Below, piece by piece: positions 329-21,127 of a stretch of DNA of 21,182 bases. Source of the DNA: a virus. Under the pieces are notes generated by a model. The model was given only the letters and a program-made list of their open reading frames with translations. It had not been told where the DNA came from and ran no database searches. The first letter of the stretch is position 1; each line of letters opens with the position of its first letter. A program made the translations under genes and the position numbers. The DNA lies in the UHGV virus genome UHGV-0103843; one strand, given 5' to 3'.

Positions 329-1207
329 TCAGTAGTTATGTACTGAAGGAGGTAATTCTTTATTCTTGAGTCTCATCCATGCGGAAAGATTCGTTGGTCC
401 ATCTGGCTCATTAATATCAACATCTCGTGTGTGGTTTATTAAAACGTCTCTCGCCATTCCGATAACATACGAGAATTCATGACCGTAGTCGTAGCATCTG
501 CCGGAATAGTTCGATTGAATTTGTTTTAATGCCGGATACAGTTCGCGGAATAATGCCTGTGAGCGGTTGGCATAATCCCATAACCATACAAGGCTGTTTT
601 CTTCTTTTGCAGAAAGCTCGTTGGTTTTCTTCTCTTGTTTGCCGATGAACTCACCTTCAAGCACTACCCTGTGGATGTACTCTACGGCCAGCGGGATTTG
701 TTCAATTGAAAGTTCATCAATGCTGTCAATACCAAAACGCTGATGAACCATATTGTATGCATCGTCATAGCGAAGTCCTTTCTTTCCTACCAGCATGTTT
801 ACTGCATCGCGTAGCGGCGTTCTTTCCTCAACAGTGGTTTTCTTGCCTTTCACATACTCGCCATGTTTGCGAATTGAAGGTAGAACTTCTGCTGTTACCC
901 ACTTGCGGAATTTGTGCGGGACCGAACCTTTATTGACAGCATCGCGGCAGCGCAGAACCAATGTATACATACCTGATTCGCTAACAATGCTTAGATTCTG
1001 CTCACCACCAAGGGTGTAACTTAAAGTTACTCCCTTTTCATCGTCATCAAGTGCAGTAAGCGCCTTGCGTGAGTTAGTCAGGGTTAAAGCATCACAAACA
1101 TCTTTTGCTACAAACCACGGCTCACCGCATTTGTTGATGACGCGGATTTCACTGTCGCCGAATTTGAAGATGGTGAAATCGTTTTGTGCCTTTGCTATAC
1201 TTTTCAT
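329..1207 (-). CDS. ant: Antirepressor Ant
   Basis: Translation from the internal Met [43 protein letters not shown]... matches P22 Ant as remembered. Start moved from the track start (1273) to the ATG at 1207, which has an AGGAAA ribosome-binding site. Position downstream of arc as in immI. Confidence 0.85.
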
Positions 1208-1275
1208 GTCAATATTTCCTAATCCGATTTGTTGATACCGAAGCCCTGACTGTTCCCGCAGTTGGGGCTTCAACT
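1208..1275 (+). ncRNA. sar: Candidate sar-like antisense RNA covering the ant ribosome-binding site and the arc-ant spacer
   Basis: Plus-strand extended -10 TGCTATACT at 1193-1201 inside the 5' end of ant, pointing opposite to ant. The 68-nt arc-ant spacer contains an inverted repeat GAAGCCC...GGGCTTC (about 1241-1272). P22 is known to make a 68-69 nt sar RNA from this position. Ends are not mapped. Confidence 0.4.
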
Positions 1276-1795: not shown

Positions 1796-2215
1796 TTAGT
1801 CTTGCTTTGTTGATGGTATAAGAGATGCGTTTGCCTCTTTTGGCTTCAAGGTATACATCCCACCATTAAAAGGATCTACAGCAAGCCAACCAATTAACCC
1901 ACCAAACACAAGGTTTCCACCAATATACCAACCATTAGCATTGGCTTTGATTGGCAGGGTAACTGGTTCGTACCCATCCTTTTCCATAGTGATCTGGTAG
2001 CTCTTTTTGCCAAAATAACTACCATCTGACTTGGCAAGAGTTACTCCTTGCGGGGTCTTGCCTTGCGCAACAATCACGCCTGATTCGTCTTTTACTTTAA
2101 AGCTCGCACCGGAAGGATTGCTGTTCACTTGCACGAGCTGTGTTTCGTCACCAACAATAGTTGCGCACCCAGATAACAATATAGCGCCAGCAACAACGCC
2201 GATAATCCTCTTCAT
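1796..2215 (-). CDS. Predicted lipoprotein (candidate superinfection-exclusion or accessory protein)
   Basis: From the internal Met the product begins MKRIIGVVAGAILLSGC: a positive n-region, hydrophobic core and lipobox LSGC. Gly-rich C-terminal segment GGNLVFGGLIGWLAVDPFNGG. Sits between gene 16 and immI, where P22 carries sieA. Confidence 0.6.
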   Translation of the reverse strand: MKRIIGVVAGAILLSGCATIVGDETQLVQVNSNPSGASFKVKDESGVIVAQGKTPQGVTLAKSDGSYFGKKSYQITMEKDGYEPVTLPIKANANGWYIGGNLVFGGLIGWLAVDPFNGGMYTLKPKEANASLIPSTKQD

Positions 2216-2333
2216 ATCAATTTCCATATTTGAAAAAACCGGAAACATCCTAATGACAAACCATTCAAATGTGAAGTAGGCAAAAGATGTTTACTTTTTT
2301 CATGGTATCCTGCTCAAAACTAAGGAGGTTGGT

Positions 2334-2657
2334 GTGTATACAACAGTTATCGTGATAGCTATCGCACTCATTGTGGTTCAGTACCAACTGGCATCTTTAA
2401 AACAAAAGATATCTGACCTCAAGACTGAGAACGAAGCACTTAAAAACTCAATAAAAGATGAGAAGAACAAACTATCATTCACTATATCTGATATTGAGCA
2501 ATCCATTGAAATTATTGAGAATAATATTAACAGACTAAAAAAAGAAGATATTCATGAAATCAATGACAATATCAAGGATTTGAAATCTTGGCTTAGGAAT
2601 GTAGGACAAATCGCCACATCAACACGAGATAAGCTCAATCCATCCATGGATGATTAA
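2334..2657 (+). CDS. Small single-pass membrane protein with a long coiled-coil (hypothetical)
   Basis: GTG start 5 nt after a perfect AAGGAGG. N-terminal hydrophobic helix YTTVIVIAIALIVVQY, then a K/E/N/I-rich heptad-like region. Markedly AT-rich compared with its neighbours. Divergent from the lipoprotein gene. Confidence 0.55.
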   Translation: MYTTVIVIAIALIVVQYQLASLKQKISDLKTENEALKNSIKDEKNKLSFTISDIEQSIEIIENNINRLKKEDIHEINDNIKDLKSWLRNVGQIATSTRDKLNPSMDD

Positions 2658-8021: not shown

Positions 8022-9439
8022 TACTCAATCCTTATCTGGCAACCAGACAGGGTGACAGGTGACTTAGTGATAACGCGCAATTTGAAGCCGACATTTTTCC
8101 TGATGCGCCCGACACGCTTCCACAAAACGCGTTTGTCGTAAACGAACGGTTCATTCTGCTCAATCATCTGCTCACGCCCATAATTTATGCCGTCAGTGGT
8201 TGCAGAGAGGAACAGGCGGTCGGCGTACTGAGCTACGCCAGTGGATGATTCCACCTCCAGATCGAAGCATCTGGCGTTATCCGCTTTGAACAGTGGAGTA
8301 AACAGCAGGTGTTCCTGTTGAAGCCCATACTGACTGCTGATATCGAACTGCAATTTCCCGGTCACCGATTCCAGCTTATCGCCGCACGTTATCTGATTTC
8401 CTTCGTAAATGAAGTCGATAGCGCGGTACACATCGTCATACAGACCTGTTTTCAGCACACACCATTGCGGACCATTGGCACTTGAAGATGCGTCGTATAC
8501 CAGGACATGGCGCGGAAGGTGGATAATCAGCAACTCATGCGCATCAAATCGCAGAGACTCCATCACGCCATCAGCCAGTTCATCAGCAGTGTAGGAGCGG
8601 AGGATTTTCTCAATGCTCGCGCTGGCGATTGGTGAAACCTGACCGGATCCGATGATGTATACAGACGGAGCACCTGTTGCCGGATTGCTGATGAACGCAT
8701 ACGAATCAGCAAACGGCGTTTTGCAGTAAGTCCCGGCAATGCCTTTTTGCACCATCAGCGATGGCTGTGCGACATACAAAGCGGCACCAACGGTGGTTGC
8801 CCCAGTCAGGGAGAAATATTCAATCGTCGATGAACCAAAACAGACGATGAAATCTCGCCATGTGCCGATACCTATGATGCCGTCCGGCTGAGATTCTGCG
8901 CGATATTGAGCACTGTAACGGTCAGGGTGCGATTCGTCTTCAAGGTCAGTGATAAACCATGAATCAGTACCGTCTTTTGACCACGCATAACGCCCACGTA
9001 AGCGCGTAATGTCGCGGACTGAGCCTAACTCATACTGCGTGAATCCGCTGTCTGTAGGCCAGTTTGAGACGGTTTTAACCGTGCCATCATAGCGATACTC
9101 GACCAGTTGACCATTAACGCCTACCGCCTGTGATGTCCGACCATGCGCCATTGATACGCGACCACTTCCGGCAACATCACCGACTTCGCTTTCGCCTTTG
9201 TAGAGCTTGCCGCCACACACACGATAGACAGCATTCTGCGCCATGTTGTACTCGACGCCGCGAGATACACCATTCACATCAGAACGTTTGGCAATGCCCG
9301 GGAATGAGCGAAGATATCCCGATGAATTCAACACCTCCTTGGGCGTAGCTAAAAGATTGACTGGAAGTTGGTCTATATAATCAGCATTAACCGCACTTTT
9401 CCCTAATCCCTTCATTAGTGGTAGTTGTTGTATTGCCAT
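8021..9439 (-). CDS. 10: Tail hub / head-completion protein gp10 homolog, with a replaced 5' segment
   Basis: From codon 32 onward the product ([18 protein letters not shown]...CQIRIE) is close to P22 gp10. The first 31 codons [31 protein letters not shown] are a divergent, AT-rich copy that overlaps the 3' end of the HNH gene. Start set at the ATG at 9439; the track start at 9448 is a TTG. Confidence 0.85.
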
Positions 9440-10019
9440 TGGAATCAACCTTTATATGAACCCAGTTAGCATCACGCTTTAGCCTACTTGCCCAGGTCTT
9501 AGATATCCCGTACTTAGCCGCAATTACTGACAAGCTTTCTTTTGATGACTTGATTGCAAGAACATCGTCATCACTCAACTTGTGTTTTGGGTGCTTGGTT
9601 CCGAAAAACTTGATTGGTTTCTTTAATCCTGTGGCGTATGCATGTTTGATGTTTTCGCTTTGAGTGCACCACTCAAGATTATTGACGTTATTATTGAGTG
9701 GATTGCCATCAATATGATTTACCTGAGGCTTGTTTTCAGGATTTGGCAGGAATGTAATTGCAACGATTCGATGGGCAAAAGTCCATTTTGCTCCGATATT
9801 ATAAAGCACCCTTCCCTGATTTATTTTAGGCTTTAACCAGCGCCCCTTTCTGAGTTGCGTGCTGCCATGCGCAGCCTTAACAACACGTGAGTGAGAATAC
9901 ACCCTGCCATCTTCTGTTACGGCATAAACACCTTCAAATCCAGGTATATCTTTAGCATTCTCAGAAAGCATATCTACTCCTTAAAGTTTCGATTTTTCAT
10001 GTACTTATTATATCAAAAT
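9347..10019 (-). mobile_element. Homing-endonuclease cassette: the HNH gene plus a recoded 31-codon 5' segment of gene 10
   Basis: Inferred insertion bounded by the end of homology of the displaced gene-10 fragment (about 10020) and codon 31 of the functional gene-10 copy (about 9347). Boundaries are approximate. Confidence 0.6.
9387..9971 (-). CDS. HNH homing endonuclease with an N-terminal NUMOD4-like motif and a C-terminal helix-turn-helix
   Basis: 194 aa with GFEGVYAVTEDGRVYS near the N-terminus, an HNH core HRIVAITFLPNPENKPQVNHIDGNPLNNNVNNLEWCTQSEN, and a C-terminal DNA-binding-like segment. Own AAGGAG ribosome-binding site. AT-rich island inserted inside gene 10. Confidence 0.85.
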   Translation of the reverse strand: MLSENAKDIPGFEGVYAVTEDGRVYSHSRVVKAAHGSTQLRKGRWLKPKINQGRVLYNIGAKWTFAHRIVAITFLPNPENKPQVNHIDGNPLNNNVNNLEWCTQSENIKHAYATGLKKPIKFFGTKHPKHKLSDDDVLAIKSSKESLSVIAAKYGISKTWASRLKRDANWVHIKVDSNGNTTTTTNEGIREKCG

Positions 10020-15250: not shown

Positions 15251-16750
15251 TTAAGTTCTCCGTGCGATGGGCCTGATTGGGGCTGGTATCTTTTTCTCTT
15301 TTGGTTTTTTGATGTCGCGCATCATTTTTGCGAAGCGGCGCATCATGTATGCATAGCGAACGGCTGAGAGAACGTCGTCGTTAAGCTTGACGATTTTCCC
15401 GTTTTCATCACGGTGATAGAGGCGGAACTCCTCAAAGAATGGCTCACAGGTGTTGAATACTTTGAAGCGACCATCGAGCATCATGTCGCGCAATTCAGTG
15501 ATGCCAGGCTCAACAGCATTACCGCCATCAGGCCATGTCGCATGCTCCTGTAACATCATAAATCCAGCGTCTGCATACTGCCCTTTGAGCTGCTCACCGC
15601 CGCCCTTCTCATGCTGGTTTCCGTCATGAGGCCATGCGGTTGGCACTTTATGCGCCCATGATTTAACAGCCCCCCATGCCTGAACAGCTGTTTTTTCTTT
15701 CGCCTTCCACACGCGTGAAACGTAGATTGTGTCTGCGTCCTTATCCCACCAAAGCTGAACCTGAGCCTGTGGGTGATCCCATCCGAAATCCATCCCGCCA
15801 ATCACGTAGAAGTGATCAGGACACTCGAACGGCTGACACTTAATAGTCTCTTCCGGTATCTGGAAGATTCGACCACTACCCATCGTAGGAATACCGCGAG
15901 CACGCGCCTCTCTCTCATGCTCAGGATAAGATGCGATGATTTGCTCTTTCTGTTCGTCTGTGTAGTGCTCAGCGTCGTAGATGGTCATGTTGACCACTTT
16001 CTGCGACTTGCTGGGATTCTTCAGGAACTTGGTAACAACGTCAGACATCCCCATCAGCGGGGTAAACGTCAGAATTGAGAATTGACCGTATTTGTTGGTA
16101 CGGGTAAGACCTTCGCCATAAATGCTGTATGGTGGCTCTTCGTCAAACCACACGCCGTGGATTGTGTCACCCTGCCAGCGAGCACGGCCTTGCGAGTATG
16201 GTTTGAAGTAGCAGATTGAAATGCCATCTTCAACGCCATCAGCCGTGTGATGCTTAACCAGAAGGTGATCAACAAGGTTCGGAAAGAAAGGAGACTTCTT
16301 CCAGCTAATGATGTCATCTTTCGGTATTGAACCGTAGCCCGGTTCATCATTCTCTTCAATACGACCGCACAGGATGCGTTGAGTCGTTTTGGTTACCGTC
16401 TCGTTTGTCTCGCCGCCAATCCAGAAGACAACAGGCTCATAGAAACGCCTACCTTTCCACTCACCGCCATATTTACCATCAGCAGGATAGCCTTTTGTGC
16501 CCGGATAACGCCCGGTAAGGTGAAACGCGACTTCAGCAGCACCAGTAAATGACTTACCAATCTGGTTACCAGCCATAAAACAGCGCTCTGGATAGTCATG
16601 CCCGGCGTCGATGAACTCACGCTGTTTGCTGTATGGCGTAAATTCATATAGCAGGTGTGTGTTCCGGTAGTTCTCTTCTTCTTCGAGTAGCTCGAGCAAT
16701 TCGATTTGCTCTTCGTCGCTCAGGTTATCAAGAATCGCGTCCAGTTCCAC
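15251..16750 (-). CDS. 2: Terminase large subunit, gp2 homolog
   Basis: 499 aa (same length as P22 gp2). Its 5' end overlaps the 3' end of gene 3 by 23 nt, as in P22. Confidence 0.9.
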
Positions 16751-17216
16751 GGTTGAATAGCTCCTTGATACGAGAGCGTCGCTTATCGCGATCTCCCTTA
16801 TCAGGTGTCACGTCTTCAACTTGCGACTGCTCTTTGAGGCCCAAATCACGGGCGATGATGTTAGCGTTGAGAAGGTCAGCGGCTGCGCCAGAGAATTTCT
16901 GGTCGTAGATGACCTGCTCTGCTCGCGTAACGACTTCAGATAAATCTTCTCGCAGGCGATATGTGCGCCATGTTTCAAGCGTCACATCAATGAAAAGAGT
17001 GAGGCCTGTAATGGTCATCGCTCGCATCTTGGCGATAGGCTCTTGTATCACTTCACCCTGATACGAGAACGCCTTCATCTCCCATAGCGGGTTAGCTTCC
17101 ACCCACTCGAAGTATTCACAACAAGCAGCCCACAGCGCCTCAGGCGATTCGAATTTAGGATTTCGCCCATGACTACTGCGGGCCTCCCAAAATCGGTTGC
17201 CCTTTGGTGCTGCCAT
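16728..17216 (-). CDS. 3: Terminase small subunit, gp3 homolog
   Basis: 162 aa, [45 protein letters not shown]...; matches P22 gp3 as remembered and contains the pac sequence. Confidence 0.9.
16928..16949 (-). other. pac site (headful packaging recognition sequence) inside gene 3
   Basis: Minus strand reads GAAGATTTATCTGAAGTCGTTA, the 22-bp P22 pac sequence as I remember it, encoding ...EDLSEVVT... of the small terminase. Confidence 0.75.
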
Positions 17217-17221
17217 ATTGA

Positions 17222-17710
17222 TTATTTCCCTTCTGCTTGCTTCCCAGTGGTGAACGAATCAACGCTGCCGCCGGAATAGCAGTCAAGATCAATTGCGACT
17301 TGTACCGCTTCTCTCGCATTTTTGCCACAGTGCATGGCAGTGCGAGCAATCAGCCCACCACTACCAATGGCGTATGGTTCAACCTGTGGCGAAATACTCG
17401 CCCGCGTTTCGCCTTTCTCTTTTGAGATGATGTAAGCACGACCAGCACCGATGATAGCAAGCGCTGTGAAAGAGAATGTCGGGAGAAATTCTGATGCATA
17501 CGTCAGGTTGTTCTTAAGCAGTTCCTGCAATTCCATCTCCGCGCCGCAATCACCAGAACAACCTAATGCAACCACTTTACTGCCGCAAACCTCCCACCCA
17601 GATTCTGGCGGTGTGTAAATCTTTTGTTCTGTATACGAACACACAACATCACCAGATGTTGCCTGGGTGTCAGATGCCAGGGTCTTTCCATCCCATGCAA
17701 TAGTGGTCAT
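17222..17710 (-). CDS. HslV-like / proteasome beta-type Ntn-hydrolase peptidase (phage cargo)
   Basis: 162 aa beginning [21 protein letters not shown] (Thr exposed after Met removal), an internal Lys near position 30, and the motif [12 protein letters not shown]. Pattern resembles HslV as remembered. Stop lies 5 nt before the gene 3 start. Confidence 0.6.
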
Positions 17711-17711
17711 A

Positions 17712-17954
17712 TCATGCTCCGGTGGTGAACAGGTCTAACGCTTCCTTCGATTTACGCACCGCTTCGATAGTGCGGGTCGTGATATCTGAATTAGCGCCGC
17801 CTGACTGGAAGTGAATTTTAAATAGCTCAAGCTTCAGCTCGTCAGTGCCAATGAATTGAAATGCTTCCTCTGCGGCTGCGTTCTGGTTCATGACCAGTTT
17901 GTAAATCTCTAACTGGAATTTCTGTTCTTCAGTCATGGGAATAATCTCTGCCAT
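17712..17954 (-). CDS. Small hypothetical protein translationally coupled to the HslV-like gene
   Basis: 80 aa, GGAG ribosome-binding site. Its stop TGA is 1 nt from the ATG of the peptidase gene. Confidence 0.5.
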   Translation of the reverse strand: MAEIIPMTEEQKFQLEIYKLVMNQNAAAEEAFQFIGTDELKLELFKIHFQSGGANSDITTRTIEAVRKSKEALDLFTTGA

Positions 17955-18057: not shown

Positions 18058-18419
18058 CTACTGTTCGCTTAGCTTCTGCTTCAGCAAGTAACCTTCCAGC
18101 ATCCAGATTTTATTCACCGCATTTTCGCGGGCGATCTTACGCCCGATCTCCTGGTCAAAGTTCTCCGGGCTGGCGCACGCAGACTCGCCGGTTACGGTAA
18201 AGCCGTTCTCCAGCACAAGAACGCAGAAGGTCAGCAGTTCGAGTGATTGCGGGCCGGTTCAGGCTCTTCCTGCTTCAGCCACAACGGTGAGCTGCGATAT
18301 CCGTCCGCGCCGGTAAAGTAAAACTCGCCTGAGATAACAGCTTCAATGCGTTCCGGGGTAACACGCGCGGCCGTTTTGCCTTTCTCAACGATTTCTTTTT
18401 CGATTTGCTGTTCGTTCAT
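18058..18419 (-). pseudogene. Frameshifted hypothetical phage gene
   Basis: Reading frame opens at the ATG at 18419 (MNEQQIEKEIVEKGKTAARVTPERIEAVISGEFYFTGADG...) and hits a stop at 18231. A different frame continues with clean coding character (LLTFCVLVLENGFTVTGESACASPENFDQEIGRKIARENAVNKIWMLEGYLLKQKLSEQ) to a stop at 18058. Confidence 0.45.
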
Positions 18420-18926: not shown

Positions 18927-18953
18927 AATAAAAAAGCCCGACAGAAGTCAGGC
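18927..18953 (-). terminator. Intrinsic terminator after the lysis cassette
   Basis: Minus strand GCCTGAC-TTCT-GTCGGGC (7-bp stem including one G-U pair) followed by TTTTTTATT, about 20 nt after the Rz stop. Confidence 0.55.
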
Positions 18954-18973
18954 TCTGTTATTTGGGTGACGAA

Positions 18974-19447
18974 TCACTTAAGACACTGCTCTTTGATGTA
19001 GTCCTGCATGCCGCGAATCATTTTGTCAGCGGTTGCGATTCCGTCCCGGTGATCGAAATAATTCCGTCGAGCGTCTGGAGTAAGTTCGGGGGCTCCTGCA
19101 TCATCCACGCCGGTGGAGGAGGTGGCTTTTGGCACTCCAGGGCAGGTTGCGGCGATGCGCAGCCGTTTAGCGCCAGAATCGACATCACGACGCAAATCGT
19201 TAATGGTCTTTTTCGCATCGGACAATTCCTTCGTGTATTTGGCATCCAGTGCAGCGACATCACGCTGGCGGGTCTGCATGTCTTTAATGGTGGCGGTCGC
19301 CAGGAGGAGTTTCTCAGTGGCCTTATCGCGCTGGTCTCTGTAAGTGATGGCGTTGTCGCGGTAGTGGTTCACGAAGAAAGCCAGTGCGCCGATTAACGCC
19401 AGCACCAGCAACTGCAGCCAGTAACGCTTAACCAGTGCGCTAATCAT
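18974..19447 (-). CDS. 15: i-spanin Rz
   Basis: 157 aa with an N-terminal transmembrane helix ([15 protein letters not shown]) and a coiled-coil periplasmic domain. ATG overlaps the endolysin stop as ATGA. Contains an embedded Rz1 frame. Confidence 0.85.
19018..19218 (-). CDS. o-spanin Rz1 (lipoprotein embedded in the +1 frame of Rz)
   Basis: 66 aa from [20 protein letters not shown] (lipobox-like LNGC), followed by a Pro-rich segment [16 protein letters not shown] that resembles lambda Rz1. GAAGGAA ribosome-binding site. Confidence 0.75.
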
Positions 19448-19893
19448 GACAGGAACAGAGCTCGCTCTGCCTTGCGGCGATTCGTGAGCCCCGGCATCAC
19501 CTTTCCGCCTGATTTATTCCAGCGCAGAAATTCATCTGCCGCGCCTTTTATATCGCCAGCATTCAGCTTTTTCAGCAGTGTAGATGTGGAAAGAGCACGC
19601 GACCCAACGTTGTAAGCGAACGACACCAGTGCGTCGAACTGGCCTTGTGTCAGCTTCACCCTGACAACTTTCAGCACGTCATTCTCATAACCAACAAGCC
19701 CTGTTTTCAGAAGCCTGTCAGCGGTTTGCTGGTCGATAGTCATACCGCGCTTTACTGGCTTTCCGTCAACCGGATGGGTCCAGCCATAGCCGATGGTCCA
19801 CGGCGCATCTCCCGTTCCGGGGTCTGGGTAAGCAGTCAGCCGACAACCTTCAAATTTTTTTATCAGAGCAATTCCGTCAGGACTGGTTTGCAT
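19444..19893 (-). CDS. 19: Endolysin, GH24 (T4-lysozyme-like) family
   Basis: From the internal Met [39 protein letters not shown], carrying the Glu / Asp / Thr catalytic pattern of phage lysozymes. C-terminus ...[11 protein letters not shown] matches P22 gp19. GGGAG ribosome-binding site; start overlaps the holin 3' end. The track start at 19965 would overlap the holin by 89 nt, so the 19893 start is preferred. Confidence 0.85.
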
Positions 19894-20200
19894 CGTCAAC
19901 TCCCGCCTTTTTTGCTGCAAGTTTTTTAATAAGATTGCCGATCGAATCGGTGCCGATGTATCCAATAAAGACGCTGGCTATGTAGGCGAGGTTGCTGCTC
20001 AGGCCGATAAAGTCCAGAAGGTCACGAACGAACCAGGCAATCATCGCGCACATCAGCGCATCAATTAGCGTTTTTGTTACCGCGCCGCCGTTATAGCGAC
20101 CACGCAGATACGCCATGATAAAAGCCAGCATTGCACCAATACCCTGCTCCTTGGCGGCAAGTAGCGCAGCGATGAAATCTTGTTTGTATGGCATTTTCAT
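19877..20200 (-). CDS. 13: Class I holin (lambda S / P22 gp13-like) with a dual-start motif
   Basis: From [39 protein letters not shown]...; close to P22/lambda holin as remembered. Strong GGAGGTGA ribosome-binding site. Met1-Lys2-Met3 dual start. The track start at 20278 is a TTG well upstream. Confidence 0.9.
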
Positions 20201-20308
20201 AGGCCTCACCTCCGATTTTTCGGATGGCGCTGTGTGTGTATGAAAAGGATCAGGCTTCACTGGCTGGATTTTCAACAAAGCACGTAGTGATTGATTCCCG
20301 TGAGCCTG

Positions 20309-20601: not shown

Positions 20602-20631
20602 ATTATGGCTAAATGGCTAATTGCATGTCAA
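20602..20631 (-). promoter_or_regulatory. Candidate late promoter (PR'-like) overlapping the 3' end of Q
   Basis: Minus strand -35 TTGACA (20631-20626), an 18-bp spacer, and -10 CATAAT (20607-20602) directly after the Q stop codon. The predicted transcript would enter the tR'-like hairpin almost immediately. Confidence 0.4.
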
Positions 20632-21127
20632 GGCTTTTAACAGCAACATGCTTAACTTTCTCAACACGTTTACGCATTTTGAAAGCATTTTGCATTGGCT
20701 GGTATAAAACAAATAATGACGCTTTCAGGATGTCGTCAATTTCGTTTCTACAGGTTGCCAGTGAAGGTTTTCTCCATCCCTCGCCACCACGTCCACACAT
20801 CTTGCGTGGCTTTGCAGTCGCGTGATAGTAGGATGCAATTGCTCGCTTAGATGAACCATGAGCGTAGTAGCTGAGGAGGATGCCAAAGGCTTTCTTGTCA
20901 ATGTACATGACGGAATCGACGACCTGAGAAATCAACATTCCATCATCATCATTACACATTGGCCTTGTCATAATTCTTCCCGGCTCTACGCTCTCCATGA
21001 ACTTCGCTATTACGCTGCTCATGCGCTTTTCCAGACGACCTGAATAAACCCATGCGCCCCACAGTTCAAGCCAGCCATTCAGCCACTCGTGCTGCTCTTT
21101 GGTGAGGTTTAGTTCTCTTATGCCCAC
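20609..21127 (-). CDS. Late-gene antiterminator Q (phage 82 / Q-family type)
   Basis: 172 aa containing ELWGAW and RPMCNDDDGMLIS, which resemble conserved features of Q82-type antiterminators as remembered. Immediately upstream of the lysis cassette. The track start is a GTG with GGGAGAAGG upstream; the exact start is uncertain. Confidence 0.75.
   Translation of the reverse strand: MGIRELNLTKEQHEWLNGWLELWGAWVYSGRLEKRMSSVIAKFMESVEPGRIMTRPMCNDDDGMLISQVVDSVMYIDKKAFGILLSYYAHGSSKRAIASYYHATAKPRKMCGRGGEGWRKPSLATCRNEIDDILKASLFVLYQPMQNAFKMRKRVEKVKHVAVKSLDMQLAI

What the first reader, a model, noticed from the sequence alone, without database searches (positions are those of the whole stretch)
17222..17954. 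HslV-like Ntn-hydrolase peptidase plus a coupled small gene, wedged between lysis and terminase genes
The 162-aa product starts Met-Thr-Thr-Ile, has a Lys near position 30 and a GSGG motif near position 120, the hallmarks of HslV and proteasome beta subunits. It is preceded by an 80-aa ORF whose stop is 1 nt from its start, and its own stop is 5 nt from the small-terminase start, so both would be expressed with the late operon. P22-type phages have no prohead protease, so a proteasome-like peptidase here is unexpected. It could recruit the host HslU ATPase, act on host or defence proteins, or be part of an uncharacterised two-gene module.
Basis: partly seen in the sequence, partly recalled or inferred. 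Interest (0 to 1): 0.7.

Follow-up and report, generated by a model that had tools for sequence, protein, structure and literature searches.

The report
Orphan HslV-like peptidase in P22-like prophage
A P22-like prophage carries a small proteasome/HslV-type threonine peptidase gene in a swappable slot just before its DNA-packaging genes; the fold call is right, but the gene belongs to an already catalogued, functionally untested phage family, and the small gene in front of it is not a dedicated partner.

Summary
On the minus strand, an 80-aa ORF (17712-17954), a 162-aa ORF (17222-17710) and the small terminase gene are separated by 1 nt and 5 nt.

The 162-aa protein is a proteasome-beta/HslV-type N-terminal-threonine hydrolase:
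- PHROG 1040 "peptidase HslV family", E 4e-38.
- M1, T2, K30, G53 and G116/G118 are invariant and D14 nearly so; dN/dS is about 0.1.

It is a shortened variant. The second apical helix of HslV and the equivalent of Lys28 are missing, and no ATPase gene accompanies it.

The 80-aa gene is P22 ORF80 (DUF2560). It is present in 899 of 5426 complete E. coli genomes, but only 10 also carry the peptidase. It lies within a region that can be deleted from P22 without loss of viability. The "two-gene module" reading is therefore not supported.

The peptidase occupies an exchangeable slot: P22 has a 59-codon ORF there and other phages a 134-aa gene. The family is large, with about 8,700 clusters. Across unrelated phages the gene usually sits just upstream of the terminase genes.

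Function is untested. Most likely it is an accessory late-expressed peptidase. Interest is modest.

The parts
17222..17710 (-). 162-aa HslV/proteasome-beta-like N-terminal-threonine peptidase gene (PHROG 1040 'peptidase HslV family')
17717..17720 (-). GGAG Shine-Dalgarno for the peptidase gene, lying inside the 3' end of the 80-aa ORF, 6 nt upstream of the ATG
   Evidence: Read directly from the sequence.
17712..17954 (-). 80-aa DUF2560 gene, the homologue of P22 ORF80; a predicted four-helix bundle of unknown function
16728..17216 (-). Small terminase subunit (P22 gp3 type), which starts 5 nt after the peptidase stop codon
   Evidence: PF16677 E 3.5e-33; phrog_606 E 1e-71.
15251..16750 (-). 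Large terminase subunit (P22 gp2 type)
   Evidence: ORF listed. The homologous position is annotated as large terminase in P22 and E. coli ET729.
18933..18956 (-). Intrinsic-terminator-like hairpin just downstream of Rz, upstream of the accessory gene block
   Evidence: 10-bp stem followed by a T-run. It is a consensus match only; function was not tested.
18058..18419 (-). Gp49 / Sf6 gene 66 family gene, split into 62-aa and 52-aa ORFs; upstream neighbour of the 80-aa gene
   Evidence: PF13876 and phrog_322 match the two pieces. There is a net 19-nt deficit (gaps of 14 and 5 nt) within a poorly aligned central segment relative to the intact 126-aa gene of E. coli ET729.

Best explanation
The 162-aa gene encodes a catalytically competent, shortened member of the proteasome-beta/HslV (MEROPS T1) threonine-peptidase superfamily. 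It belongs to the large phage-borne clade that PHROGs lists as 'peptidase HslV family'.

**How it most likely works**
- It is an accessory cargo gene, not a core gene. It occupies an exchangeable slot between ORF80 (DUF2560) and small-terminase gene 3 of a P22-like prophage.
- It is transcribed and translated with the Q-dependent late operon.
- After the host removes Met1, Thr2 becomes the N-terminal nucleophile. Asp14, Lys30, Gly53 and Gly116-Ser117-Gly118 support it, as in HslV (inferred).
- It probably assembles into HslV-like rings and cleaves host or phage polypeptides late in infection (inferred).
- It has no dedicated phage ATPase. It also lacks the HslV surface elements that I recall as the HslU docking face, so I think it more likely acts without canonical HslU docking (inferred).

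**Shown versus inferred**
- Shown: fold, catalytic residues, purifying selection, slot exchange, rarity, absence of a conserved partner, and synteny with terminase genes.
- Inferred: activity, oligomer state, timing of expression, independence from HslU, and substrates.

The 80-aa neighbour is an independent, common, dispensable P22-group gene of unknown function.
For: **Identity**
- phrog_1040 E 4e-38.
- AF2 pLDDT 94.8.
- Every Foldseek hit listed (top 50) is a proteasome, HslV or BPH chain.
- The family profile hits HslV chains in the PDB at E about 4e-8. hhalign against E. coli HslV gives probability 96.4%.

**Catalytic set**
- M1, T2, K30, G53, G116 and G118 are invariant and D14 nearly so across 56 homologues down to about 30% identity. 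They align with HslV T1, D17, K33, G45 and GSGG.

**Selection**
- dN 0.06 and dS 0.59 against the Dewey-type allele.

**Accessory slot**
- P22 homology stops within a few bases of the ORF80 stop codon and resumes about 14 nt before the gene 3 ATG. In between, P22 has an unrelated 59-codon ORF.
- UPF_BP1 and SF6 hold a 134-aa phrog_3018 gene at the same place.
- The peptidase is in 10 of 5426 E. coli genomes; DUF2560 is in 899.
- This stretch of the P22 late region is a documented moron site (PMC3573128). Deleting orf25-orf80 leaves P22 viable (PMC11016777).

**Late expression**
- Q, holin, lysozyme and Rz lie upstream on the same strand.
- The consensus scan found no sigma-70-like promoter on that strand.
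- Spacers are 1 nt and 5 nt.

**No partner**
- Upstream genes are heterogeneous.
- No ATPase family ranks among the commonest PHROG families of the two genes upstream or downstream across 65 dereplicated loci; only the top 25 families were listed.
- No PADLOC hit.
Against: - No activity, oligomer or expression data exist for any member of this clade. I found none in the searchable literature.
- Pfam PF00227 and the NCBIfam HslV and proteasome models do not reach threshold. Membership therefore rests on PHROGs, profile-profile comparison and a predicted structure.
- The model has only one helix in the layer where HslV has two. This could alter ring assembly as well as ATPase docking.
- The recurrent position next to terminase genes in unrelated phages might reflect a packaging-linked role rather than a generic accessory role.
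- The loci recovered here are almost all from Proteobacteria. From general knowledge these hosts generally encode HslU, so dependence on host HslU is not excluded.
Confidence: 0.6

Rival explanations
1. Host-HslU hijack. The phage protein forms an HslV-like dodecamer that docks on the host HslU ATPase. It would replace or compete with host HslV and so redirect ATP-dependent proteolysis during late infection.
For: - Neither the window nor the commonest neighbour families include an ATPase.
- Hosts of the retrieved relatives are almost all Proteobacteria. From general knowledge these carry hslVU.
- A jumbo-phage paper likewise reports HslV genes without HslU (PMC7823757).
Against: - The roughly 14-17-residue HslV segment that forms the second apical helix and the following loop is absent from the whole family.
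- The column aligned to HslV Lys28 is Ser25 here and is variable across the family. From memory of the HslUV structural literature, not checked here, Lys28 anchors the HslU C-terminal carboxylate.
- The score against the NCBIfam HslV equivalog is 13 bits against a cut-off of 137.
Confidence: 0.25
2. Packaging- or head-linked protease. The gene is kept next to the terminase genes because its product acts on a packaging or morphogenesis component, for example terminase turnover, scaffold clearance, or removal of DNA-bound proteins.
For: - In 17 of 37 dereplicated loci a recognised terminase lies within three genes downstream.
- Across 65 dereplicated loci the two downstream genes are dominated by at least five different small-terminase PHROGs plus large terminases.
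- In beta-proteobacterial loci L097 and L109 the gene overlaps the large terminase start by 4 nt.
Against: - P22 and about 99% of DUF2560-bearing E. coli prophages assemble without it.
- The boundary between the lysis and head modules is a known site where cargo genes accumulate (PMC3573128). Linkage can therefore be positional rather than functional.
- In Jersey-type and Jedunavirus phages the gene sits next to holins or tail genes instead.
- The loci are phylogenetically non-independent.
Confidence: 0.1
3. Counter-defence or host-takeover effector. The peptidase degrades a host immunity or stress protein, and being made at the head of the late operon helps it do so. This is a specific version of the best explanation.
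For: - The distribution is accessory, patchy and horizontally exchanged.
- The catalytic residues are strongly conserved.
Against: - There is no direct evidence.
- No similarity to catalogued defence components.
- The literature searches run here found no report of a function for phage HslV-like proteins.
Confidence: 0.15
4. Dedicated two-gene module of DUF2560 plus peptidase, for example adaptor-protease or toxin-antitoxin.
For: - The two ORFs are separated by 1 nt.
- DUF2560 directly precedes the peptidase in 20 of the 85 loci examined, before dereplication.
Against: - 899 E. coli genomes carry DUF2560 and only 10 carry both genes.
- Dewey-type phages insert a 95-aa gene between them.
- L036 has the reverse order.
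- Among 65 dereplicated loci only 6 have DUF2560 within the two upstream genes.
- Upstream neighbours in other phages belong to unrelated PHROGs.
- No PADLOC hit.
Confidence: 0.03

Closest known systems
HslV (ClpQ), the peptidase subunit of the bacterial HslUV ATP-dependent protease (MEROPS T1B)
   Same: - N-terminal Met-Thr-Thr with no propeptide.
- Asp, Lys, Gly and Gly-Ser-Gly-Gly catalytic positions align.
- Similar small size.
   Different: - About 14 residues shorter.
- Lacks the second apical helix and the adjoining loop.
- The Lys28 equivalent is not conserved.
- No hslU gene nearby.
- Phage-borne.
- About 20-30% identity; fails the NCBIfam HslV equivalog model.
PHROG 1040 'peptidase HslV family' of tailed phages, e.g. 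Escherichia phage Dewey CDS0077, Salmonella phage vB_SenS-Ent3 gp49, Xanthomonas phage OP1 ORF51, and jumbo Salmonella and Erwinia phages
   Same: - Direct family membership: E 4e-38, full length.
- 88% identity to the Dewey protein.
- Same length class and the same conserved MTTIAWDG N-terminus.
   Different: Nothing essential. This is one more member, and only one deposited phage genome holds a >80%-identical copy (Dewey). The family has an annotation but no experimental characterisation that I could find.
20S proteasome beta subunits, and the orphan bacterial homologues BPH and Anbu
   Same: - Same Ntn sandwich fold and Thr1/Asp17/Lys33 chemistry.
- From general knowledge, BPH and Anbu also have no known ATPase partner.
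   Different: - No propeptide.
- Much shorter.
- One helix fewer.
P22 late-region morons, e.g. pid between orf25 and orf80
   Same: Same genomic neighbourhood, and the same behaviour as an insert that related phages lack or replace (PMC3573128).
   Different: pid is divergently transcribed and has its own terminator. The peptidase gene is co-oriented with the late operon and tightly packed into it, with no promoter of its own predicted.

Membership tests
Proteasome-beta/HslV superfamily (MEROPS T1 Ntn hydrolases) | Threonine that becomes the N-terminal nucleophile (directly after Met1, or after a propeptide) | tested here: met
   M1-T2-T3. M1 and T2 are invariant in 56 homologues and align to M-T-T of E. 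coli HslV.
Proteasome-beta/HslV superfamily (MEROPS T1 Ntn hydrolases) | Asp17, Lys33, Gly45/47 and the Gly-Ser-Gly loop that support Thr1 | tested here: met
   D14 is conserved in at least 90% of sequences. K30, G53, G116 and G118 are invariant. They align to the corresponding HslV residues.
Proteasome-beta/HslV superfamily (MEROPS T1 Ntn hydrolases) | Alpha-beta-beta-alpha Ntn sandwich fold | tested here: met
Proteasome-beta/HslV superfamily (MEROPS T1 Ntn hydrolases) | Passes the curated sequence models (Pfam PF00227; NCBIfam proteasome beta and HslV) | tested here: not met
   No Pfam hit at E up to 1. NCBIfam scores are 13-16 bits against cut-offs of 137-224. The clade is too divergent for these models.
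Proteasome-beta/HslV superfamily (MEROPS T1 Ntn hydrolases) | Stacked-ring oligomer with an internal proteolytic chamber, and measurable peptidase activity | not testable with these tools
   No multimer prediction or biochemistry was available. Tandem paralogues in jumbo phages hint at hetero-oligomers.
HslV proper (partner of HslU) | Encoded with, or functionally tied to, an HslU AAA+ ATPase | tested here: not met
   No ATPase gene was identified in the window. Among the neighbours in 65 loci, no ATPase family ranks in the top 25 PHROG families. Full-length phage HslU homologues were found only in RAY-like jumbo phages.
HslV proper (partner of HslU) | Apical helix 2 with the pore loop, and Lys28, which form the HslU-facing surface (role recalled from the HslUV structural literature) | tested here: not met
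   The HslV segment of about 14-17 residues has no counterpart. The model has a loop there. HslV K28 aligns to S25, a variable column.
PHROG 1040 'peptidase HslV family' | Significant full-length match to the family HMM | tested here: met
   E 4e-38, 132.6 bits, residues 1-158.
DUF2560 (PF10834), for the 80-aa ORF | Match above the Pfam gathering score | tested here: met
   147.7 bits against a cut-off of 25, covering residues 5-76 of 80. Homologous to P22 ORF80.
Prohead maturation proteases of tailed phages | Fold of a known prohead protease family (known ones are serine proteases, from general knowledge); gene lies between portal and scaffold/capsid; present throughout the phage group | tested here: not met
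   The fold is that of a Thr Ntn hydrolase. The gene lies upstream of the small terminase. It is absent from P22 and from about 99% of related E. coli prophages.
Two-gene defence or toxin-antitoxin module | Obligate co-occurrence of the two genes; similarity to catalogued defence components | tested here: not met
   10 of 899 genomes carry both genes. Order and spacing vary. No PADLOC hit.

The most novel reading that the evidence does not exclude
The phage 'mini-HslV' clade has about 8,700 clusters at 50% identity, is invisible to Pfam, lacks HslV's second apical helix and has no ATPase partner. On the most novel reading it is a self-sufficient proteasome-like protease. Its recurrent placement immediately upstream of unrelated terminase genes would then reflect a real functional link. 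Two possibilities are a role in DNA packaging, or pre-emptive destruction of host sensors that recognise terminase or portal proteins. The alternative is that the position only reflects a convenient insertion site.
Probability: 0.12. Interest if true: 0.7.

Novelty: new member of a known kind. Interest (0 to 1): 0.35.

Why it matters
For this window the result is mostly clarifying. The gene is a correctly recognised but already catalogued phage HslV-family peptidase, sitting in a known cargo region of P22-like phages. The small gene next to it is an ordinary, dispensable P22-group gene.

The wider point is that a very large phage-borne clade of proteasome-like peptidases has no experimental characterisation. 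It differs structurally from HslV on what I recall as the ATPase-docking face. It also shows a consistent position ahead of terminase genes.

Members sit in tractable E. coli phages: Dewey, and prophages that seem to excise in strains 0H24 and 0H26. Simple genetics and biochemistry could therefore establish what an orphan proteasome-like enzyme does for a virus.

Tried and rejected
- **Curated sequence models.** Pfam gave no hit for the peptidase. NCBIfam gave only sub-threshold proteasome and HslV hits.
- **Single-sequence search of PDB sequences.** Only marginal hits, E 0.16 or worse. A profile was needed.
- **PADLOC.** No defence-system similarity for the peptidase, DUF2560 or the upstream small ORFs.
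- **Literature.** No paper on the function of phage HslV-like proteins or DUF2560.
- **Erwinia phage RAY gp116.** I followed this 'HslVU family, nucleus-localised' protein as a possible family member. It is a 569-aa HslU-type ATPase, not an HslV-like protein, so I dropped the lead.
- **A conserved small upstream partner.** The upstream ORFs in Ent3, IME346, OP1, the Proteus phage and Dewey fall in different PHROGs or in none. Aggregated over 65 loci no family dominates.
- **Homology to the alternative slot occupant.** The 134-aa gene in UPF_BP1 and SF6 is not a diverged homologue (BLASTP E 6.5). It is phrog_3018.
- **A deletion scar in P22.** I looked for remnants of the peptidase gene in the P22 ORF80-gene 3 interval and found none.
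- **DUF2560 fold search.** Uninformative; only generic helical matches.
- **My simple gene caller.** It failed on half of the high-GC genome loci, so I replaced it with a same-strand chain approach.
- **One PHROG scan failed.** The coordinates were off by one; I repeated it correctly.

Full report
**1. What is in the sequence**

All the genes concerned are on the minus strand. The window is the late region of a P22-like prophage. In transcription order it holds:
- a Q-type antiterminator (20609-21127);
- a holin (19877-20278);
- a lysozyme (19444-19965);
- Rz (18974-19447);
- a 66-aa phrog_3909 ORF;
- a split Gp49/Sf6 gene 66 family gene (18058-18419);
- the 80-aa ORF (17712-17954);
- the 162-aa ORF (17222-17710);
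- small terminase gp3 (16728-17216) and large terminase (15251-16750);
- portal, scaffold, coat and the rest of the P22-type virion genes, down to gp16 and an Ant antirepressor.

The same layout is annotated in an E. coli ET729 prophage.

- The 80-aa ORF stops at TGA (17714-17712). One base follows, then the ATG at 17710.
- A GGAG lies 6 nt upstream of that ATG.
- The peptidase stops at TAA (17224-17222). Five bases follow, then the ATG of gene 3 at 17216.

A crude consensus scan predicts no sigma-70-like promoter on this strand between Rz and gene 3. A terminator-like hairpin follows Rz. Co-expression with the Q-dependent late transcript is therefore the reasonable inference, but it was not shown.

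**2. What the 162-aa protein is**

Pfam gives nothing. NCBIfam gives only sub-threshold proteasome-beta and HslV hits. PHROGs places the protein in phrog_1040, 'peptidase HslV family', at E 4e-38 over residues 1-158.

I aligned 56 homologues reaching down to about 30% identity.
- M1, T2, A5, K30, G53, G116, G118 and A122 are invariant.
- T3, W6, D7, G8 and D14 are nearly invariant.

An AlphaFold2 model built on that alignment is confident (pLDDT 94.8, pTM 0.89).
- Foldseek returns proteasome beta, HslV and BPH chains throughout the 50 hits listed.

The family profile finds HslV chains in the PDB at E about 4e-8. I recalled the E. coli HslV sequence and verified it against PDB chain 5ji3_A, which differs at one residue. 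hhalign against E. coli HslV gives probability 96.4%. It aligns M-T-T, D14 with D17, K30 with K33, G53 with G45, and GSGG with GSGG.

Against the Dewey-type allele, dN is 0.06 and dS is 0.59, so dN/dS is about 0.1. The gene is therefore a real one under purifying selection, and it encodes an Ntn threonine hydrolase with a complete catalytic set.

**3. How it differs from HslV**

The phage clade is shorter. Most members are 140-165 aa, against 176 aa for E. coli HslV.

Both the profile alignment and hhalign show that a stretch of 14-17 HslV residues has no counterpart. In E. coli HslV this stretch reads roughly '[20 protein letters not shown]'. It forms the second apical helix and the loop after it. 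The model has a single helix (57-66) and then a loop where HslV has two helices.

The residue aligned with HslV Lys28 is Ser25, and that column varies across the family. From my memory of the HslUV structural literature, which I did not check here, this face and Lys28 receive HslU and its C-terminal tail. If that is correct, canonical docking on host HslU is doubtful. It is not excluded.

**4. The 80-aa gene and the 'module' idea**

The 80-aa ORF is DUF2560 (147.7 bits against a cut-off of 25) and phrog_571. It is the homologue of P22 ORF80.

The co-occurrence data argue against a dedicated pair:
- DUF2560 DNA is present in 899 of 5426 complete E. coli genomes. The peptidase gene is in only 10.
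- In Dewey-type phages a 95-aa phrog_11049 gene lies between the two.
- In locus L036 the order is peptidase, then DUF2560, then small terminase.
- In other phages the small ORF upstream of the peptidase belongs to unrelated PHROGs or to none.
- Over 65 dereplicated loci, DUF2560 appears among the two upstream genes only 6 times.
- P22 with orf25-orf80 deleted still makes viable particles (PMC11016777).

The tight spacing reflects ordinary phage gene packing, not a dedicated pair.

**5. The slot**

- **P22.** Comparing the junctions, homology ends within a few bases of the ORF80 stop codon and resumes about 14 nt before the gene 3 ATG. In between, P22 has an unrelated 59-codon ORF that is not annotated in AF217253. 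No remnant of the peptidase gene is present.
- **Salmonella phages UPF_BP1 and SF6.** These hold a 134-aa phrog_3018 gene at the same place. It is unrelated to the peptidase.
- **Published context.** The neighbouring interval of the P22 late region, between orf25 and orf80, is a documented moron site (pid; PMC3573128).

The peptidase gene is therefore one of several alternative cargo genes in an exchangeable slot. It is rare: one close relative among deposited phages (Dewey, 88% identity) and 10 E. coli genomes, six of them from one strain series. In two of those strains a 39-kb circular copy is also assembled, which suggests that the prophage excises.

**6. The family at large**

tblastn finds relatives in 332 phage records. 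They include Jersey-type siphoviruses, Jedunavirus, Xanthomonas, Vibrio and Proteus phages, and jumbo Salmonella, Erwinia and Pseudomonas phages. Many are already labelled 'peptidase HslV family'.

A profile search of 1.84 billion cluster representatives gives 8,718 proteins at E up to 1e-10. Among the homologues, where precomputed Pfam domains are listed, all but one carry none.

I fetched 80 IMG/VR loci and 45 genome loci and examined the gene neighbourhoods.
- In 17 of 37 groups dereplicated at 90% identity, a recognised terminase lies within three genes downstream.
- Over 65 dereplicated loci, the families most often found in the two downstream genes are small terminases and large terminases. 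The small terminases are phrog_51, 1482, 606, 370 and 1206.
- In beta-proteobacterial loci the gene abuts the large terminase directly.
- Upstream genes are heterogeneous, with a few spanins and endolysins.
- No ATPase family ranks among the 25 commonest neighbour families, upstream or downstream.

The simplest reading is that the boundary between the lysis and head modules is where cargo accumulates. A functional link with packaging cannot be excluded, and I keep it as a rival. The counts are not phylogenetically corrected.

**7. Mechanism, stated with its limits**

Shown:
- the fold and the catalytic residues;
- purifying selection;
- slot exchange and rarity;
- absence of a conserved partner or ATPase;
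- synteny with terminase genes.

Inferred:
- Met1 is removed and Thr2 acts as the nucleophile.
- The protein forms HslV-like rings. Jumbo phages carry two or three tandem paralogues, some with degenerate catalytic positions, which is reminiscent of mixed rings.
- It is made late.
- It cleaves host or phage polypeptides as a non-essential aid to the phage.
- It more likely works without canonical HslU docking.

I put 0.6 on this overall picture, 0.25 on HslU hijack, and less on the other rivals.

**8. Comparison, novelty and scores**

The gene is a new member of an already catalogued phage family. That family is itself an uncharacterised, shortened variant of HslV.

A specialist would not be surprised by the annotation. 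They might be interested in the missing helix, the size of the family and the terminase linkage.

Interest is 0.35.

The most novel reading still open is a self-sufficient proteasome-like protease functionally tied to packaging or to counter-defence. I give it probability about 0.12 and interest 0.7 if true.

Noticed in passing
window 18058-18419 (-): The Gp49 / Sf6 gene 66 family gene is split into 62-aa and 52-aa ORFs. Relative to the intact 126-aa gene of E. coli ET729, its poorly aligned central segment carries a net 19-nt deficit (gaps of 14 and 5 nt). It is probably a pseudogene or a recombinant variant.
   Followed up: partly
window 9387-9971 (-): A 194-aa HNH endonuclease gene (phrog_59) sits between the gp4-type adaptor and gp10 and overlaps the gp10 ORF start. 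In ET729 the same insert is flanked by a truncated 'packaged DNA stabilization protein' fragment. This suggests a homing-endonuclease insertion in the head-completion genes.
   Followed up: partly
L061 6001-7954; L065/L066 5081-7124; L057 6001-7209; L089 6001-7274 (IMG/VR jumbo-phage contigs): Jumbo phages carry two or three tandem HslV-like paralogues. Some keep MTT/Lys/GSG. Others have Thr2 changed to Ser, Lys30 to Arg, or a degenerate GSG. This resembles the active and inactive beta subunits of eukaryotic proteasomes and hints at hetero-oligomeric rings. A PhuZ tubulin gene lies two genes downstream in three loci.
   Followed up: partly
L136 6353-8062 (Erwinia phage RAY gp116): RAY-like Agricanvirus phages encode a full-length HslU-type AAA+ ATPase (17 phage records with at least 80% coverage). 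It is reported to localise to the phage nucleus (bioRxiv 10.1101/2023.02.24.529968). The A1 profile found no HslV-like gene in the 45 kb around it. Other jumbo phages match only the HslU N-terminal region.
   Followed up: partly
L001 3018-3221 (P22 AF217253, between ORF80 and gene 3): The 204-bp 'gap' in this P22 record holds an unannotated 59-codon ORF. It starts at a GTG 1 nt after the ORF80 stop codon (GGAGCATGATGTGG). It occupies the same slot as the peptidase gene in the window.
   Followed up: partly
E. coli 0H24, 0H25 and 0H26 records NZ_CP081778.1, NZ_CP081694.1 and NZ_CP081786.1 (hits H119, H121, H123): Two 39,448-bp (and one 29,741-bp) 'plasmid' records carry the peptidase gene in addition to the chromosomal prophage copy. 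They are probably assembled excised phage genomes, which would indicate an active prophage.
   Followed up: no
L097 5001-6844 and L109 5001-6757 (Burkholderiaceae and Rhodoferax MAGs): A 143-aa HslV-like gene overlaps by 4 nt the start of a large terminase gene, which is followed by a 700-736-aa portal-sized ORF. The peptidase gene thus sits where a small terminase gene would normally be expected.
   Followed up: partly
window 2334-2657 (+), 1796-2248 (-) and 329-1273 (-): Downstream of gp16 there is a 107-aa ORF on the opposite strand (phrog_5962, unknown function). It is followed by a 150-aa phrog_6823 ORF and an Ant antirepressor. This is the immI-like accessory region of this prophage.
   Followed up: no
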